Origin: a virus
Taxonomy: Duplodnaviria > Heunggongvirae > Uroviricota > Caudoviricetes
DNA: 6,150 nucleotides
IMG/VR virus record: IMGVR_UViG_2778261637_000011
Strand: one strand, 5' to 3'
Positions 805 to 6,150 of the stretch are shown piece by piece; the stretch's first letter is position 1, and each line of letters opens with the position of its first letter. The notes beneath the pieces were generated by a model. The model was not told the DNA's origin, ran no database searches, and was given only the letters and a program-made list of their open reading frames with translations. The position numbers and the translations under genes are program-made.

Positions 805-815
805 GTGGAGTGGAT

Positions 816-3143
816 ATGGCAGCAGTAAAAATCTCAGGTGTGCTGAAAGATTGTGCGGGAAAACCAATACAGAACTGCACTATTCAACTGAAGGCAAAGC
901 GTAACAGCACCACGGTACTGGTGAACACGGTGGCCTCTGAAAATCCGGATGAAGCCGGGCGTTACAGCATGGATGTTGAGCATGGCCAGTACAGCGTCAT
1001 CCTGCTGGTTGAAGGTTTTCCGCCTTCACATGCCGGGACCATTACCGTCTATGAAGGCTCCAGACCAGGTACGCTGAATGATTTTCTCGGTGCCATGACG
1101 GAAGATGATGTCATGCCGGAGGCATTGCGTCGTTTTGAGGCAATGGTGGAAGAAGTGGCACGCAACGCCGAAGCCGCCTCTCAGAGCGCAGCGGCGGCAA
1201 AGAAATCCGAAACTGCAGCGGCATCATCGAAGAACGCGGCGAAAACCTCAGAAACGAATGCAGCTAATAGTGCACAGGCGGCAGCGACCTCAAAGACTGC
1301 ATCGGCAAACTCCGCGACAGCAGCCAAAAAATCAGAAACCAACGCGAAAAATAGCGAGACAGCCGCAAAGACGAGCGAAACCAACGCAAAGTCCAGCCAG
1401 ACGGCAGCGAAAACCAGCGAAACGAATGCCAAAGCCAGTGAAACTGCGGCAAAAAACAGCCAGGTTGCAGCAGCCCAAAGCGAGAGCGCGGCAGCCGGTT
1501 CTGCGACTTCAGCAGCTGGATCAGCAACTGCTGCGGCTAACAGCCAGAAAGCTGCGAAGACGAGTGAAACTAACGCAAAGTCCAGCCAGACGGCAGCGAA
1601 GACCAGCGAAACGAATGCCAAAGCCAGTGAAACTGCGGCGAAAAGCAGTCAGGATGCAGCGGCCCAAAGCGAGAGTGCCGCAGCCAGTTCTGCAAGCGCG
1701 GCGGCTGCTTCTGCCACTGCATCAGCTAACAGTCAAAAAGCAGCAAAAACCAGTGAAACCAACGCAAAGGTGAGCGAAACAGCGGCTGCGAACTCAGCGA
1801 AAGCATCGGCAGCAAGCCAGGCTGCGGAGCCGTATAAATATGTCTTACAGCCGCTGCCTGATGTGTGGATACCATTTAACGATTCGCTGGATATGATTAC
1901 GGGCTTTTCGCCATCATATAAAAAAATTGTTATTGGTGACGATGAAATAACGATGCCTGGCGACAAGATTGTTAAGTTTAAACGTGCATCGAAAGCAACC
2001 TATATTAACAAATCTGGTGTGCTGACAGAGGCTGCCATTGACGAGCCACGATTTGAACGTGATGGCCTGCTTATTGAGGGGCAAAGAACAAACTACATGC
2101 TCAATTCGGAAAGCCCTGCCAGTTGGGGGCGATCGTCAAATATGGATGTGCCCGAAACAGGGACGGATAATTTTGGTTTTACCTATGGAAAGTTTGTCTG
2201 CAACGATTCTCTGATTGGGCAAACCTCAGCCATTAATATGGCATCAATTGCTGCAACAAAGTCAGTTGATGTCTCAGGCGATAATAAACACGTGACAACC
2301 TCATGTCGTTTTAAAACAGAACTGCAGGTAAGGTTGCGTATCCGGTTTGATAAATATGACGGTAGCGCAACAACTTTTCTTGGTGATGCGTATATTGATA
2401 CACAAACGCTTGAAATTAATATGACAGGCGGTGCTGCCTCAAGGATTACAGCGAGAGTCAGAAAGGACGAAGCTACCGGATGGATTTTTGCAGAGGCAAC
2501 AATTCAGGCAATTGATGGGGAGTTAAAAATAGGCTCTCAGATACAGTATTCTCCTAAGCAGAGCGGGGCAACCGTATCTGGTGACTATATTTATCTGGCC
2601 ACCCCACAAGTAGAAGATGGGCCTTGTGTATCATCTTTTATTATATCAGGAGCGACGGCGGCGACCCGCGCAAGCGATATAGTTACAGTTCCAATTAAGA
2701 ATAATCTTTATAATCTTCCTTTTACGGTTCTTTGTGAGGTACATAAGAACTGGTATAAAACGCCAAATGCAGCGCCACGTGTTTTTGATACCGGCGGTCA
2801 TCAAACCGGAGCGGCTATTATTCTTGGCTTCGGTCGTTCAACAGATTACGACGGATTTCCTTATTGCGATATTGGAGGAGCTAACAGACGGGTAAACGAA
2901 AACGCATCGCTTGAAAAAATGGTTATGGGGATGCGTGTAAAGTCAGAGCAGTCTACGTGCTCAGTAAGTAACGGGCATATATCCAGCGAAACAAAAACCA
3001 CATGGTCCTGTATTCAGAACACCGCAATTATCCGTATTGGAGGCCAGACTACAGCCGGGTTACGTCATTTATTTGGTCATGTCAGGAATTTCAGAATATG
3101 GCACAAGGCATTGACTGATGCTCAGGTGGGGGAGTCAATCTAA
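816..3143 (+). CDS. stf: Side tail fiber protein, mosaic: lambda Stf-like N-terminus, repetitive shaft, divergent C-terminal putative receptor-binding domain
   Basis: RBS ggag (807-810) lies 5 nt before ATG 816; the ORF track begins at an in-frame GTG at 810. The N-terminal ~110 aa (MAAVKISGVLKD...GQYSVIL...GFPPSHAGTITVYE...GTLNDFL...AMVEEVARNA) closely resemble lambda Stf from memory. Residues ~120-340 are AAKTSETNAK-type tail fiber repeats. The C-terminal ~430 aa are lower in GC and end in ...FGHVRNFRIWHKALTDAQVGESI, which resembles the terminal motif of LamG/ConA-like jelly-roll domains. Confidence 0.88.
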   Translation: MAAVKISGVLKDCAGKPIQNCTIQLKAKRNSTTVLVNTVASENPDEAGRYSMDVEHGQYSVILLVEGFPPSHAGTITVYEGSRPGTLNDFLGAMTEDDVMPEALRRFEAMVEEVARNAEAASQSAAAAKKSETAAASSKNAAKTSETNAANSAQAAATSKTASANSATAAKKSETNAKNSETAAKTSETNAKSSQTAAKTSETNAKASETAAKNSQVAAAQSESAAAGSATSAAGSATAAANSQKAAKTSETNAKSSQTAAKTSETNAKASETAAKSSQDAAAQSESAAASSASAAAASATASANSQKAAKTSETNAKVSETAAANSAKASAASQAAEPYKYVLQPLPDVWIPFNDSLDMITGFSPSYKKIVIGDDEITMPGDKIVKFKRASKATYINKSGVLTEAAIDEPRFERDGLLIEGQRTNYMLNSESPASWGRSSNMDVPETGTDNFGFTYGKFVCNDSLIGQTSAINMASIAATKSVDVSGDNKHVTTSCRFKTELQVRLRIRFDKYDGSATTFLGDAYIDTQTLEINMTGGAASRITARVRKDEATGWIFAEATIQAIDGELKIGSQIQYSPKQSGATVSGDYIYLATPQVEDGPCVSSFIISGATAATRASDIVTVPIKNNLYNLPFTVLCEVHKNWYKTPNAAPRVFDTGGHQTGAAIILGFGRSTDYDGFPYCDIGGANRRVNENASLEKMVMGMRVKSEQSTCSVSNGHISSETKTTWSCIQNTAIIRIGGQTTAGLRHLFGHVRNFRIWHKALTDAQVGESI
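1190..1800 (+). repeat. In-frame repetitive region inside stf, including a 189-bp tandem duplication (copy 1 1362-1550, copy 2 1551-1739, partial third copy from 1740)
   Basis: Seen directly: the string gtccagccagacggcagcga recurs at 1391 and 1580, a 189-bp period, with near-identical flanks. A nested periodicity of about 42 bp encodes TAAKTSETNAKxSx units. Confidence 0.8.
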
Positions 3144-3424
3144 TGAAAGATTTAACACTCAAATTTGCCGACAGGGCCGACTTTTCGGCCTTTATGGAGA
3201 GTATTGGCTATTATGATGACGAGTCGATGCAGGATGATATTCTTATTGACGTGATAGGTAACGTGTACAAAGAAACCGGAGAACTGACTGAAGATGGCGA
3301 ACCGGTATGTGTTAAGGAAGACGGATATTTTGTAAACGTGCGCATCATTAATGATTCGCAAATATCGTCATTATTCGATGAATACGTGGTTGCTGTTGAG
3401 CATCAACTTCGTGGCTGGATGTGA
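3143..3424 (+). CDS. Hypothetical small acidic protein (93 aa) translationally coupled to stf; possible fiber assembly factor or adaptor
   Basis: ATG at 3143-3145 overlaps the stf stop TAA (3141-3143) by 1 nt (TAATG). A G-rich Shine-Dalgarno-like stretch ggggag (3129-3134) lies upstream. The protein is D/E-rich with no obvious transmembrane segment. I do not recognise the family. Confidence 0.6.
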   Translation: MKDLTLKFADRADFSAFMESIGYYDDESMQDDILIDVIGNVYKETGELTEDGEPVCVKEDGYFVNVRIINDSQISSLFDEYVVAVEHQLRGWM

Positions 3425-3433
3425 GGAAGAAAA

Positions 3434-4474
3434 ATGGCTACATCGACAGTAATTCCTGATGACATCAAAACGCTAAAATCCGACGTTAGCAAATTAAAAA
3501 ACGATCAAGGAAGCTACGCAACAAAATTATATGTAGACAGCAAAGATGAAATCGTTGGTGACTGGTCTGCTTCATGGTATCAGCAGGTATTGCCAACTAG
3601 CGGAGCTATATTTGGGAGAAAACTCCGCTCAACTCACAGGACGGCAGGTGTTGAGGATGCGTATTGCGAACTATACCTCAAAAAATGGATAGACAGTCCA
3701 GGTAACGCAATGGCGCGCCTTAACCTGAACGATAACGGGACAAACATTTGCTGGGACTTTACCAACCTTTATGGCGGTACGATGATTTTTCCCGGTGACA
3801 GCGGATACCTCAAAATGGGTAACTGCCTTATGTCATACAGCAAGCGTGGAAGTAACGCGCTTATTAAATTTGATTACACCGACACATTACAGATCAAATA
3901 TGCCAATCATGGGTCAACCATGACATTAAACACACAGGGAACCGCTTATGCTGGTGTTACTGCTCAATTGTGGGGCAACTCCAGCCGTCCTGTTGTTTAT
4001 GAAGTCGGTGTTGATGGTGGCGCTTATATGTTCTATGCGCAGAAAAATACCGATAACACCTATATGTTAAGCGTTAATGGTGCATGTCATGCCACCGCAT
4101 TTAACCAGCATTCCGACCGGGATCTGAAAGACAACATTCAGGTGATCGATAATGCAACCGACCGCATCCGTAAAATGAACGGCTATACATACACGCTTAA
4201 AGAAAACGGTATGCCCTATGCTGGTGTCATTGCACAGGAAGCTCTGGAAGCAATCCCAGAAGCTGTAGGTTCCGCAATGAAATATCAGGACGGTGCAAGC
4301 GGATCGGAAGGTGAAGAAGGTGAACGTTATTACACAGTAGATTATTCTGGTGTTACTGGCTTGCTTGTTCAGGTAGCCAGAGAGTCAGACGACAGAATAA
4401 CAGCACTGGAAGAAGAAAATGCAGAATTAAAACAAAGATTATCTGCAATTGAGGCGACGCTTGCGTCTAAATAA
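3434..4474 (+). CDS. Tail fiber / tailspike-like protein with C-terminal peptidase S74 intramolecular chaperone domain
   Basis: RBS gagga (3423-3427) overlaps the upstream stop, 6 nt before ATG 3434. The C-terminal ~120 aa carry the hallmark S74 motifs: S227-DRDLKDNI, GVIAQEALEAIPEAV, YYTVDYSGVTGLLVQVARE and a terminal coiled-coil ITALEEENAELKQRLSAIE, as in endosialidase and T5 L-shaped fiber chaperone domains. Confidence 0.85.
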   Translation: MATSTVIPDDIKTLKSDVSKLKNDQGSYATKLYVDSKDEIVGDWSASWYQQVLPTSGAIFGRKLRSTHRTAGVEDAYCELYLKKWIDSPGNAMARLNLNDNGTNICWDFTNLYGGTMIFPGDSGYLKMGNCLMSYSKRGSNALIKFDYTDTLQIKYANHGSTMTLNTQGTAYAGVTAQLWGNSSRPVVYEVGVDGGAYMFYAQKNTDNTYMLSVNGACHATAFNQHSDRDLKDNIQVIDNATDRIRKMNGYTYTLKENGMPYAGVIAQEALEAIPEAVGSAMKYQDGASGSEGEEGERYYTVDYSGVTGLLVQVARESDDRITALEEENAELKQRLSAIEATLASK

Positions 4475-4480
4475 TATTAA

Positions 4481-4500
4481 GGGGCCGAGCGCCCCGTTTT
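4481..4500 (+). terminator. Rho-independent terminator candidate after the fiber module
   Basis: Seen directly: GC-only 5-bp stem ggggc (4481-4485) pairing with gcccc (4491-4495), loop cgagc, then tttt (4497-4500). It starts 7 nt after the stop codon at 4472-4474. Confidence 0.5.
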
Positions 4501-4516: not shown

Positions 4517-4810
4517 ATGGATATAACACCTTTCCTTCATGCACTTTGTGCTGTGGCTGCGCAGGTACTGGTTGGTCTTTTTACCGGAAACTGGGCTTAC
4601 GGGGCGATAGCCGGTTGTACGTTCTTCATTGCTCGTGAACATACCCAGGCAGAATATCGCTGGATTGAAATGTTCGGGCATGGCAAGCGTATGAATATGC
4701 CGTGGTGGGGTGGTTTTGATCCGCGCGTGTGGGATGTGGCAAGCCTGATGGATTTTTCTGTGCCGGTGGTGGCTTGTCTGCTGGTCTGGCTGTTGGTTAA
4801 TCGTGGGTGA
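4517..4810 (+). CDS. Hypothetical small membrane protein (about 98-102 aa), candidate prophage accessory gene
   Basis: ORF is open from 4502 (TTG) to TGA at 4808-4810. The most plausible start is ATG 4517, with agga (4508-4511) 5 nt upstream; ATG 4511 is an alternative. Two hydrophobic stretches (LHALCAVAAQVLVGLFTGNWAYGAIAGCTFFIA and VPVVACLLVWLLV) suggest two transmembrane helices. The overlapping antisense ORF (4499-4984) has a His/Arg/Pro-rich composition that does not look protein-like. Confidence 0.5.
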   Translation: MDITPFLHALCAVAAQVLVGLFTGNWAYGAIAGCTFFIAREHTQAEYRWIEMFGHGKRMNMPWWGGFDPRVWDVASLMDFSVPVVACLLVWLLVNRG

Positions 4811-5355: not shown

Positions 5356-6150
5356 TTATAGTAAAGATGATATGCCAGCAAGAAATGGAGTAAATACTGT
5401 AATGTGTGCAGATACATTATTAATAAAGTCCTTATATGCTTCTTTAAAACAGCCGCTTTGGTGACTGGCTGCCAGTGCCTGTACATTATCTATAAGGTGT
5501 GATTCTGTCGCGCCATCAAAGTTTTTCGATTTTATTGCCTCAATCATTTCATTAAATATTGTGGGCTCATTATAATTTGTCGTAGTAGTTGCCGTAGCAC
5601 CTGAAGAATGTATATTGATACTAGAACCGGAAATTCCACTGACATGAATATTAGCTTCTTGTTTCATAAGAGGTAAACCATTCTCCATCTTGTATAGGTC
5701 ACTATCTTGTAGCATCTGCAATGTGATACGTACTGCTGCTAATAGTTGTTCTTGCTTTTTGAATAAGGAACACATCTGTTCTACAGACCAAAGCTGAACT
5801 GCATTTTCTTCGCATGTTTTTTTAGCTATATTTGGCACTTCCGAATCATAATTACCATAAACCCAAGTGTCCTTGAATCTTTCGATAATAGCTGTCAACG
5901 TTGGAAATTTACTGAAATCACTATTAATGGATAGTAACTCATCAGACATATAAAGTGCCATATCTCTGCCTTCCGCATATACTGCTTCCACTTTATTCCG
6001 TGTTGCAAATGGTATTCTTGAAATAAAACGAAAATCCTCTTCATTTTTTAAATGGACCCAGTCTTTATCAAAACGGCTAAATTCGTACCCTATCGATAAC
6101 AGTCTACTTATATATTGGGCTACTGATTCCAAATCTTTTCTTATGTCCAA
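5356..6150 (-). CDS. Hypothetical protein, AT-rich cargo gene, 5'-truncated by the window edge (C-terminal 264 aa visible)
   Basis: A 795-nt open frame on the minus strand with stop TAA at 5356-5358 (tta on +). The M at 6150 in the ORF track is a TTG at the window edge, so the true start is beyond 6150. Sampled 60-nt lines give about 32-42% G+C versus about 63% in lom. I recognise no confident family from the visible residues. Confidence 0.6.
   Translation of the reverse strand: MDIRKDLESVAQYISRLLSIGYEFSRFDKDWVHLKNEEDFRFISRIPFATRNKVEAVYAEGRDMALYMSDELLSINSDFSKFPTLTAIIERFKDTWVYGNYDSEVPNIAKKTCEENAVQLWSVEQMCSLFKKQEQLLAAVRITLQMLQDSDLYKMENGLPLMKQEANIHVSGISGSSINIHSSGATATTTTNYNEPTIFNEMIEAIKSKNFDGATESHLIDNVQALAASHQSGCFKEAYKDFINNVSAHITVFTPFLAGISSLL

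What the first reader, a model, noticed from the sequence alone, without database searches (positions are those of the whole stretch)
3143..3424. Orphan 93-aa acidic protein translationally coupled to stf
The 1-nt TAATG overlap with the stf stop implies coupled, stoichiometrically linked expression. The protein is small, D/E-rich and sits where lambda carries tfa, yet it is about half the size of lambda Tfa and I do not recognise its sequence as Tfa. It may be a novel fiber chaperone, an adaptor linking Stf to the downstream S74 protein, or an unrelated moron.
Basis: partly seen in the sequence, partly recalled or inferred. Interest (0 to 1): 0.5.

Follow-up and report, generated by a model that had tools for sequence, protein, structure and literature searches.

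The report
Conserved small partner of lectin-tipped tail fibres
This 93-residue acidic protein is not an orphan: it belongs to a widespread phage family of unknown function that always sits directly after a tail-fibre gene ending in a lectin-like head, and here it probably helps build the joint where a second fibre branches off.

Summary
The ORF is real: 3143-3424, 93 aa, pI 4.05, with a 1-nt TAATG overlap on the stf stop. It is not an orphan. It matches phrog_1361 (unknown function) over its full length and occurs in 988 of 5,426 complete E. coli genomes and 183 phage records.

- **Upstream partner.** In 194 of 196 loci the gene directly upstream ends in a Stf C-terminal module homologous to the window's. 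189 of these overlap the small gene by 1 or 4 nt. Distant metagenomic members follow the same rule, one set inside a Mu-like baseplate cluster.
- **Downstream gene.** This is optional. About half the loci carry a distal fibre that starts with a conserved peptide (M-x-T-x-T-x-IP-x-DI-x-x-LK). The rest have none, yet the small gene stays under purifying selection (dN/dS about 0.35, against 0.20).
- **Mosaicism.** ORF93 plus that peptide is a near-identical island between two independently swapped variable modules.
- **Fold.** The confident AF2 fold matches no known fibre chaperone.

Best reading: a non-allele-specific accessory subunit of the lectin-type fibre head that also forms the branch joint. 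Binding, virion presence and mechanism remain untested.

The parts
810..3143 (+). stf, side tail fibre, 777 aa. N-terminal anchor at aa 5-134, Ala/Ser-rich repeat shaft, C-terminal head module.
   Evidence: ORF. PF08400 at E = 1e-65. phrog_1419 tail protein over the full length. Tandem 42- and 189-nt repeats at 1316-1769.
1854..3140 (+). Stf C-terminal head module (aa 349-777). This is the part shared by every fibre that precedes a family member.
   Evidence: 40-62% identity to the C-termini of fibres whose N-termini are otherwise unrelated, of lambda-, T5- and rV5-type. Found in 201 phage records at >=80% coverage. All 194 upstream ORFs hit it.
2070..2672 (+). Region like the RcGTA head-spike fibre (Stf aa 421-621). 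Probably a globular glycan-binding domain.
   Evidence: NCBIfam NF048003 scores 50.6 bits against a cut-off of 36. PDB 6tb9 chain F3 (Rcc01080) at E = 1e-7. RcGTA head spikes mediate capsule binding, and the fibre is present as a single subunit per spike (PMC7296036).
2970..3128 (+). LamG/ConA-type C-terminal strands of Stf, including RHLFGHVRNFRIWHKALTD.
   Evidence: Pfam Laminin_G_3 at E = 0.0028, below threshold for the window protein but present in 13 of 18 homologous C-termini, best E = 2e-11. The motif is conserved in all upstream partners, including distant ones.
3128..3134 (+). Shine-Dalgarno sequence (GGGGGAG) for ORF93, embedded in the last stf codons.
   Evidence: Read from the sequence. 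Equivalent purine-rich sites occur in most of the 13 diverse loci read.
3143..3424 (+). ORF93, the finding. A small acidic alpha/beta protein, member of phrog_1361.
3123..3480 (+). Constant island of near-identical DNA across prophages whose flanking modules differ: SD + ORF93 + 9-nt spacer + first ~15 codons of the distal fibre gene.
   Evidence: 30-nt sliding identity runs at 90-100% inside the block. It falls to 3-83% in the last ~130 nt of stf and to 10-67% after about 3480 in L019, L074, L071 and L092.
3422..3433 (+). ORF93 stop plus 9-nt spacer (TGAGGAAGAAAA) carrying the SD for the distal gene. ORF93 and the distal gene are in the same frame.
   Evidence: A 9-nt spacer recurs in L004, L009, L010 and L199.
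3434..4474 (+). Distal fibre protein, 346 aa, with a C-terminal S74 intramolecular chaperone domain (aa 227-278, nt 4112-4267).
   Evidence: PF13884 at E = 2.6e-14. phrog_4563 tail fiber protein over the full length.
3434..3478 (+). Candidate docking peptide MATSTVIPDDIKTLK at the N-terminus of the distal fibre.
   Evidence: The same peptide heads otherwise unrelated distal proteins in L002, L003, L004, L008, L009, L095 and L096. 93 loci match the motif. In phages without the cassette, the fibre module that follows it is internal to a larger single polypeptide.
4481..4495 (+). Terminator-like GC hairpin followed by a T run, closing the stf-ORF93-distal fibre unit.
   Evidence: No terminator-like site lies between the three genes on the + strand.

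Best explanation
ORF93 is a dedicated accessory protein of lateral tail fibres that end in a lectin-like (LamG/ConA-type, RcGTA-head-spike-like) head. It is not specific to any one head allele.

It is made in step with Stf through the conserved stop/start overlap. It most likely binds a conserved feature of the head module, such as the invariant C-terminal strands ...RHLFGH(V/I)RNFRIWHxxLxD. Its own conserved beta-sheet face and strictly C-terminal R-x-W tail are the likely contact surfaces.

In loci such as this window that also encode a separate distal fibre, ORF93 and the conserved N-terminal peptide of that fibre (MATSTVIPDDIKTLK) form the constant joint. Through this joint the S74-processed distal fibre hangs non-covalently on Stf, giving a branched fibre with two independently exchangeable receptor-binding modules.

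**Shown here:**
- The gene is real, selected and folds.
- It is invariably coupled to a fibre or tail protein ending in a head module homologous to the window's Stf C-terminus, which matches Laminin_G_3 in 13 of 18 sampled C-termini.
- It persists without a distal fibre.
- It is inherited as a block with the distal peptide.
- It lacks co-variation with the head.

**Inferred, not shown:**
- Physical binding to the head.
- Presence in the virion.
- Contact with the peptide.
For: 1. **Obligate synteny.** 194 of 196 loci have an upstream ORF bearing the window-type Stf C-terminal module, and 189 overlap the small gene by 1 or 4 nt.
2. **Independence from the fibre N-terminus.** The module and small-gene pair travels on lambda-type, T5-type and rV5-type fibres.
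3. **Distant members follow the same rule.** These include a Mu-like baseplate cluster (L203-205) and a 153-aa single-domain partner (L207). The upstream protein ends in a LamG-type strand motif in five of the six distant contexts where it is visible, including L207 in degenerate form, and only loosely in L206. Laminin_G_3 hits 13 of 18 partners.
4. **Apparent exceptions are explained.** AKFV33 and BRET carry a divergent 88-aa member (hhalign probability 98.5%). Phage 1W has an IS element inserted in the 3' end of stf.
5. **A shared peptide on distal fibres.** They are unrelated in their bodies but share the N-terminal peptide. In phiKT, Sloth and HermannAdler, which are outside the cassette set recovered here, the same downstream fibre module is internal to one large polypeptide.
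6. **Mosaicism.** ORF93 is 95-100% identical next to Stf heads that are 31-50% identical. Across 70 unique combinations, r(ORF93, distal N30) = 0.82 against 0.31-0.39 for the Stf head. The DNA identity block runs from about 3123 to about 3480.
7. **Retained without a distal fibre.** About 94 loci and 24 unique sequences give dN/dS of 0.35, against 0.20 with one. Phage 21 has no other fibre gene or motif anywhere in its genome. Configurations A and B are interleaved in the family tree.
8. **Structure.** The AF2 model is confident (pLDDT 86.4), but the conserved C-terminal tail has low confidence, as expected for a partner-binding segment.
9. **Operon structure.** There is no internal promoter or terminator, and a terminator follows the distal gene.
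Against: - No direct evidence of any protein-protein contact. Co-folding was impossible with the tools.
- No virion proteomics covering a 10.7-kDa protein was found. AKFV33 had only four gel bands analysed, and rV5 lacks this allele.
- The correlation between ORF93 and the peptide could reflect only the 9-nt physical linkage and where recombination breakpoints fall.
- LamG-type domains usually fold without helpers, so the need for a partner is unexplained.
- Published AlphaFold-Multimer models of the IrisVonRoten fibre describe Gp22 and Gp24 and assign no role to the small Gp23 (PMC11990801).
- dN/dS is somewhat higher without a distal fibre. This hints that part of the constraint depends on that fibre, but the pairs compared are not independent.
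Confidence: 0.55

Rival explanations
1. ORF93 is a purely transient assembly chaperone. It helps the lectin-type head of Stf fold, or keeps it soluble or capped inside the cell. It is absent from the mature virion and does not touch the distal fibre, whose N-terminal peptide docks directly on Stf.
For: - It occupies the position of lambda tfa, directly downstream of and coupled to the fibre gene.
- It is retained where no distal fibre exists.
- It is never found fused to its partner in any of the clusters with E <= 0.001.
- There is precedent for downstream-encoded fibre chaperones acting as transient caps on lectin-like heads (PMC10579305).
Against: - Known fibre chaperones of the P2/Mu/lambda Tfa type travel with the fibre tip they serve (my own knowledge, not tested here). 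Here the head is swapped to 31-50% identity while ORF93 stays 95-100% identical.
- There is no sequence or fold similarity to Tfa, gp38, gp57A or IMC-type chaperones.
- It does not explain why the left edge of the conserved block falls at the ORF93 start while the right edge includes the distal peptide.
Confidence: 0.3
2. ORF93 is a reversible mask or regulator of the lectin head. It occupies or occludes the glycan-binding site until the virion is released or meets a host, so that progeny are not trapped on debris. It has no architectural role.
For: - The whole family is strongly acidic, pI 4.05-4.81.
- The partner is a glycan-binding type of domain.
- There is precedent for transient caps.
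Against: - Glycan-binding surfaces should be the variable part of the head, yet ORF93 does not co-vary with the head.
- No evidence bears on this directly.
- It does not explain the linkage with the distal peptide.
Confidence: 0.08
3. ORF93 is unrelated cargo, a moron or anti-defence gene, that merely hitch-hikes at a recombination-prone spot after stf.
For: The function is unknown and there is no match to structural families. It lies near other accessory genes: lom, a 97-aa membrane protein, and sitABCD beyond.
Against: - It is present in strictly lytic phages of at least five lineages, always in the fibre operon.
- It is absolutely coupled to the stop codon of one kind of partner protein, even in a Mu-like baseplate cluster.
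- It has no own promoter or terminator.
- It has no PADLOC hit.
Confidence: 0.04

Closest known systems
Lambda Tfa / P2 G / Mu U tail fibre assembly proteins (Caudo_TAP type)
   Same: Encoded immediately downstream of the side tail fibre gene and tightly coupled to it. Small and cytoplasmic. Presumed to act on the fibre's C-terminal receptor-binding end.
   Different: - About half the size: 93 aa against about 190 aa.
- No sequence match.
- A different predicted fold.
- It does not co-vary with the fibre tip, whereas Tfa-type proteins travel with the tip they serve (own knowledge).
- The partner tip is a lectin-type head rather than a trimeric fibre tip.
Alteromonas phage V22 gp27 / A5 gp9 'transient chaperone caps' (PMC10579305)
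   Same: A downstream-encoded small protein acting on a fibre with a lectin-like distal head. The pair is shared as a module between unrelated phage families.
   Different: Those chaperones resemble intramolecular chaperone domains, and ORF93 does not. No experimental data exist for ORF93.
Branched lateral tail fibres of T5-like phages DT57C/DT571-2 (LtfA + LtfB; PMC4728585, PMC10713586)
   Same: Two fibre proteins encoded in tandem, with the distal one attached through the proximal one. They give dual O-antigen specificity, and the modules are exchanged by recombination.
   Different: In DT57C both proteins end in S74 domains, and neither paper mentions an intervening small gene. Here only the distal protein has S74, the proximal one ends in a lectin-type head, and a conserved small gene lies between them.
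IrisVonRoten (Bas32) Gp22-Gp23-Gp24 fibre as modelled in the BASEL collection paper (PMC11990801)
   Same: This is the same three-gene cassette. Gp22 is the proximal fibre with a 'galectin-like' C-terminal domain, Gp23 is an ORF93 homologue (39% identity), and Gp24 is a distal fibre with the same N-terminal peptide.
   Different: The paper discusses Gp22 and Gp24 and gives the small protein no described role. The window's distal fibre is a short S74 fibre, not a T-shaped dual-RBD fibre.
T4 gp35/gp36 hinge between proximal (gp34) and distal (gp37) half-fibres
   Same: A functional analogy only: small separate proteins forming the joint between two fibre segments (own knowledge).
   Different: No homology was detected in any search. 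The sizes and architecture differ, and T4's joint is demonstrated whereas this one is inferred.

Membership tests
phrog_1361 (PHROGs, unknown function) | Full-length match to the family HMM | tested here: met
   E = 2.4e-46, residues 1-93 on profile positions 1-92 of 92.
Tfa-type tail fibre assembly proteins (lambda Tfa, P2 G, Mu U) | Sequence match to a Tfa / Caudo_TAP family model | tested here: not met
   No Pfam, NCBIfam or annotated PHROG hit at E <= 1.
Tfa-type tail fibre assembly proteins (lambda Tfa, P2 G, Mu U) | Encoded directly downstream of the fibre gene it serves | tested here: met
   1-nt overlap here, and a 1- or 4-nt overlap in 189 of 194 loci.
Tfa-type tail fibre assembly proteins (lambda Tfa, P2 G, Mu U) | Travels or co-varies with the fibre's receptor-binding tip | tested here: not met
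   ORF93 is 95-100% identical next to Stf heads that are 31-50% identical. r = 0.31-0.39.
Tfa-type tail fibre assembly proteins (lambda Tfa, P2 G, Mu U) | Required for fibre folding or trimerisation | not testable with these tools
   Needs co-expression and deletion experiments.
Intramolecular / IMC-like fibre chaperones (Peptidase_S74) | S74 domain match or IMC-like fold in ORF93 | tested here: not met
Structural joint or adaptor of a branched tail fibre | Always accompanied by both a proximal and a distal fibre | tested here: not met
   The distal fibre is absent in about half of the loci and in several independent lineages.
Structural joint or adaptor of a branched tail fibre | Inherited together with the attachment segment of the distal fibre | tested here: met
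   The identity block runs from about 3123 to about 3480 and includes the first ~15 codons of the distal gene. r = 0.82.
Structural joint or adaptor of a branched tail fibre | Present in the virion and contacting both fibres | not testable with these tools
No informative proteomics was found.
Partner domain: Laminin_G_3 / ConA-like lectin (Stf C-terminus) | Pfam PF13385 match above the gathering score | tested here: inconclusive
   The window's Stf scores 18.3 bits against a cut-off of 27.6 (E = 0.0028). 13 of 18 homologous partner C-termini match, best E = 2.2e-11. Precomputed hits exist in L200 and L203.
Partner domain: RcGTA head spike fibre domain (NF048003) | NCBIfam match above the curated cut-off | tested here: met
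   50.6 bits against 36, Stf aa 421-621. PDB 6tb9_F3 at E = 1e-7.
Moron (lysogenic-conversion cargo) | Own promoter or terminator, and restricted to temperate elements | tested here: not met
   No signals beyond the chance expectation between stf, ORF93 and the distal gene. The family is common in strictly lytic phages.

The most novel reading that the evidence does not exclude
ORF93 and the ~15-residue N-terminal peptide of the distal fibre are a universal plug-and-socket joint. On this reading ORF93 is a new, Tfa-unrelated class of virion protein. It caps lectin-type fibre heads and lets any fibre carrying the peptide be hung on any head of this kind. That would explain how coliphages from at least five lineages shuffle two receptor-binding modules independently.
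Probability: 0.35. Interest if true: 0.7.

Novelty: new variant of a known kind. Interest (0 to 1): 0.5.

Why it matters
Lateral tail fibres decide which O-antigen and capsule types a coliphage can reach, and they are the main target of host-range engineering. This family sits at the exact boundary where two receptor-binding modules are exchanged in nature, and it occurs in about 18% of complete E. coli genomes and in many therapeutic-type phages (T5-like, rV5-like, Drexlerviridae). No function has been described for it in any paper I found.

If it is the joint or an obligatory assembly partner, chimeric fibres of this type will fail unless it is carried along. In that case the ORF93-plus-peptide unit could serve as a ready-made connector for adding a second receptor-binding protein.

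If it proves to be only a transient helper, it is still a fibre accessory family unrelated in sequence and predicted fold to the known fibre chaperones, and its lack of co-variation with the fibre tip would set it apart from Tfa-type proteins.

Tried and rejected
- **Pseudo-complex co-fold.** ORF93 and the distal gene share a frame, so I tried submitting window:3143-3571.
- **Natural fusions as a substitute.** The longer homologues are frameshift artefacts or loop insertions.
- **PDB searches.** Sequence and profile searches gave only chance-level hits.
- **Large multi-stretch hits in the exhaustive search.** P0235, P0266 and the like are PKD-type repeat proteins, and P0262 is another tandem-repeat protein. 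They match a short strand/acidic motif summed over the repeats, so I rejected them as spurious.
- **Virion proteomics.** AKFV33 had only four bands identified. The rV5 whole-virion MS is irrelevant because rV5 did not appear among the 35 phage records carrying this fibre allele.
- **Papers that say nothing on the small protein.** The DT57C papers, the chimeric-Stf papers and the SIA3lw paper.
- **Viral-contig scan with the VogelGryff protein.** It found nothing.
- **TGA read-through fusing ORF93 to the distal fibre.** Considered and set aside. The spacer is not a multiple of 3 in L002, L003 and L008, the stop codon varies, and the spacer is a plain SD.
- **Third deep protein search and second AF2 job on the Stf head.** Not spent, because the main conclusion does not depend on them.
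Full report
**Observation.** The window is the right end of the tail region of an E. coli lambdoid prophage. It carries lom (152-751), a 777-aa stf (810-3143), ORF93 (3143-3424), a 346-aa S74 fibre protein (3434-4474), a small membrane protein (4517-4810), and a 264-aa ORF on the minus strand.

The stf stop TAA and the ORF93 ATG share one base (TAATG), and a GGGGGAG Shine-Dalgarno sequence lies 8 nt upstream. The protein weighs 10.7 kDa and is acidic, with pI 4.05 and 21 D+E against 7 K+R.

**Not an orphan.**
- ORF93 matches PHROG family phrog_1361 (function unknown) over its full length, at E = 2.4e-46.
- It has no Pfam, NCBIfam, PADLOC or PDB sequence match.
- Near-identical DNA is present in 988 of 5,426 complete E. 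coli genomes.
- tblastn finds it in 183 phage records. These span lambdoids (including phage 21), Drexlerviridae, Dhillonvirus, Queuovirinae, T5-like Markadamsvirinae and rV5-like Vequintavirinae.
- An exhaustive profile search of 1.84 billion representative proteins returns only 91 clusters. The full-length distant members share MxDLxLKF at the start, a central D(I/V)(I/V)G, then G(Y/W)HVNLRV, and a strictly C-terminal TPxRVWA.
- Several large multi-stretch hits in that search are PKD-type repeat proteins, which I regard as spurious.
- Among one-genome-per-species bacterial representatives, only Escherichia carries the gene.

**The invariant neighbour is upstream.** I analysed 198 loci from annotated phages, IMG/VR and genomes.
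- 194 of the 196 with a callable start have, immediately upstream, an ORF that hits the window's Stf C-terminal module.
- 189 of those overlap the small gene by 1 nt (58 loci) or 4 nt (131 loci).
- The two exceptions are an IS insertion into the 3' end of stf (phage 1W) and one unresolved locus.

Many of these loci are near-identical prophages, and they reduce to 67 distinct small proteins. The rule also holds across the diverse set.
- The shared part of the fibre is only its last ~430 residues (40-62% identity). It is attached to a lambda-type, a T5 pb1-type or a 1,489-aa rV5-type N-terminus.
- T5-like AKFV33 and Nonagvirus BRET have a head only 36% identical. They carry an 88-aa protein that is a divergent family member (hhalign probability 98.5%, 24% identity).
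- Distant metagenomic members behave the same way. L199 has a 1-nt overlap. L203-205 have a 532-aa Laminin_G_3 protein and the small gene (4-nt overlap) wedged between Mu gp43-like and gp44-like baseplate genes. L207 has a partner that is a single 153-aa domain.
- The upstream partner ends in a LamG/ConA-type C-terminal strand motif (…IRN(F/L)RIWHxxLxDxQ(I/V)K…) in all the fibre loci and in four of the six distant contexts where it is visible. It is degenerate in L207 and only loosely similar in L206.
- Pfam Laminin_G_3 hits 13 of 18 partner C-termini. The window's own is below threshold at E = 0.003.
- Stf residues 421-621 also match the RcGTA head-spike fibre domain above NCBIfam's cut-off, and PDB 6tb9. 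That fibre is present as a single subunit per head spike, and the head spikes mediate capsule binding (PMC7296036).
- The phage collection holds the head module in 201 records at ≥80% coverage, against 183 for the small protein at the sensitivity used.

**The downstream neighbour is optional but informative.**

*Configuration A* (about 95 loci, 50 unique nucleotide sequences, including the window). The small gene is followed within a few bases by a fibre protein.
- These distal proteins have unrelated bodies: an S74 fibre here and in JenP1, 225- and 388-aa proteins annotated as 'putative lateral tail fiber chaperone' in two BASEL phages, and T-shaped 557-579-aa fibres in T5-like phages and Nonagvirus BRET.
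- They nevertheless begin with the same peptide, M-x-T-x-T-x-IP-x-DI-x-x-LK.
- A second clade of small proteins (AZ21, L199) goes with a second peptide type, MANRxDTxxL.
- In phiKT, Sloth and HermannAdler, which are outside the cassette set recovered here, the fibre module that follows the peptide in T5-like phages lies 230-375 residues inside one large polypeptide.
- So the peptide marks fibres that are separate proteins and must be attached non-covalently.

*Configuration B* (about 94 loci, 24 unique sequences). There is no distal fibre, and the small gene is followed by the 97-98-aa membrane protein that in the window lies after the distal fibre.
- Phage 21 has no other fibre gene and no such motif in any reading frame of its 42.9-kb genome.
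- A and B are interleaved in the small-protein tree, which implies several independent gains or losses.
- The gene is under purifying selection in both configurations. Median pairwise dN/dS is 0.20 in A and 0.35 in B, though the pairs are not independent.

**Mosaicism.** Among 70 unique combinations that have a distal fibre, ORF93 identity correlates with the first 30 residues of the distal protein (r = 0.82). It correlates only weakly with either half of the Stf head (r = 0.39 and 0.31).

Many prophages have ORF93 at 95-100% identity next to Stf heads whose last 215 residues are only 31-50% identical. At nucleotide level the near-identical block begins about 20 nt before the ORF93 ATG. Where the distal fibre differs, the block ends 30-60 nt into the distal gene, just after the peptide. 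ORF93 plus the peptide is therefore a constant island between two independently exchanged variable modules.

**Structure.** With a 73-sequence alignment, AF2 gives a confident model (pLDDT 86.4, pTM 0.73). The order of elements is β1-α1-α2-β2-β3-β4-β5-α3, followed by a lower-confidence C-terminal tail that carries the conserved R90 and W92.

**Interpretation.** The data show a selected, folded protein whose one invariant associate is a protein ending in a head module homologous to the window's Stf C-terminus, which scores as Laminin_G_3 in most sampled members.
- It does not track the variable parts of that head, so it is unlikely to be an allele-specific chaperone of the Tfa kind. If it binds the head, it must recognise conserved features such as the invariant C-terminal strands.
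- It is inherited as one piece with the attachment peptide of the distal fibre. I therefore favour a non-allele-specific accessory subunit of the head that also provides, or completes, the socket for the distal fibre (confidence 0.55).
- The main rival is a purely transient assembly helper that never meets the distal fibre (0.3).
- A reversible mask of the sugar site (0.08) and unrelated cargo (0.04) are less likely. The cargo reading is contradicted by the synteny in lytic phages and by the lack of its own transcription signals. A terminator-like hairpin appears only after the distal gene, at 4481-4495.
- Binding, stoichiometry and virion presence are all inferred. I could not co-fold the proteins, and I found no proteomics able to see a 10-kDa protein.

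**Relation to the literature.**
- The same three-gene cassette is IrisVonRoten Gp22-Gp23-Gp24. The 2025 BASEL paper models Gp22 (proximal, with a 'galectin-like' C-terminal domain) and Gp24 (T-shaped distal fibre). It gives the small protein no described role (PMC11990801).
- Branched fibres are established genetically for DT57C LtfA/LtfB. There both proteins end in S74 domains, and neither paper mentions a small intervening gene (PMC4728585, PMC10713586).
- Downstream-encoded chaperone caps on lectin-like fibre heads are described for Alteromonas phages, but they are IMC-like (PMC10579305).
- I found no paper that assigns a function to this family.

**Verdict.** The gene is a member of a common, uncharacterised fibre-associated family. 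The coupling rule, the optional distal fibre with its conserved peptide, and the constant-island mosaic pattern together make a specific, testable hypothesis. I rate it as a new variant of a known kind (fibre accessory protein) with moderate interest.

Noticed in passing
window 4517-4810 (+): A 97-aa predicted two-TM membrane protein (phrog_1443, unknown function) follows the fibre cassette. In about 94 related loci it directly follows the small gene when the distal fibre is absent, and in phage 21 it is annotated 'putative membrane protein'. It lies after the terminator-like hairpin, so it may be a separate accessory gene, possibly for exclusion.
   Followed up: partly
window 3422-3436: ORF93 and the distal fibre gene are in the same reading frame, separated only by TGA plus 9 nt (TGA GGA AGA AAA ATG). 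The 9-nt spacing recurs in L004, L009, L010 and L199. The spacer is a plain SD and the spacing is not universal, so I did not pursue stop-codon read-through.
   Followed up: partly
window 1316-1769 (+), within stf: The Stf shaft is built from 42-nt and 189-nt tandem repeats encoding Ala/Ser/Thr-rich heptad-like units (…AAKTSETNAK…). In RefSeq record NZ_CP023820.1 the equivalent stf is annotated as a truncated pseudogene plus a separate 'phage head spike fiber domain-containing protein' CDS. This suggests that repeat-length variation or frameshifts confuse annotation of this gene.
   Followed up: partly
window 5356-6150 (-): A 264-aa ORF that runs off the window end has no family assignment apart from a weak PADLOC hit (PDC-M14B, E = 0.0017). 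In the matching genome it lies between a frameshifted DinI-like gene and sitABCD, at the prophage/cargo boundary.
   Followed up: no
L097 (phage 1W, OM475428.1) 4661-7327: A three-ORF mobile element (annotated 'mobile element protein' x3) is inserted into the 3' end of stf. It truncates the head and separates it from the intact small gene by about 2.7 kb.
   Followed up: partly
L203-L205 (metagenomic Mu-like contigs) 2406-4282: A pair made of a Laminin_G_3 protein and a family member is inserted between the Mu gp43-like (DNA_circ_N) and gp44-like baseplate hub genes of a myovirus. The pair is therefore not restricted to side-fibre loci.
   Followed up: partly
phage collection records MG0656xx ('Campylobacter phage') and OR84xxxx-OR85xxxx ('Listeria phage', 'Salmonella phage' fragments); L092 ('Collinsella sp.' MAG contig, 2.8 kb): Records labelled Campylobacter or Listeria phage carry sequences 100% identical to rV5-like or T5-like coliphage fibre loci. 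A Collinsella MAG contig carries an E. coli prophage fragment. These are probably mislabelled or contaminated entries.
   Followed up: no
L209 (Dhillonvirus Sloth) versus L008 (Dhillonvirus rolling): Two phages of one genus solve the same problem differently. Sloth has a single 805-aa lateral fibre containing the distal module internally. Rolling has the split design: a fibre ending in the same head module as the window's Stf, then the small protein, then a separate distal protein with the docking peptide.
   Followed up: partly
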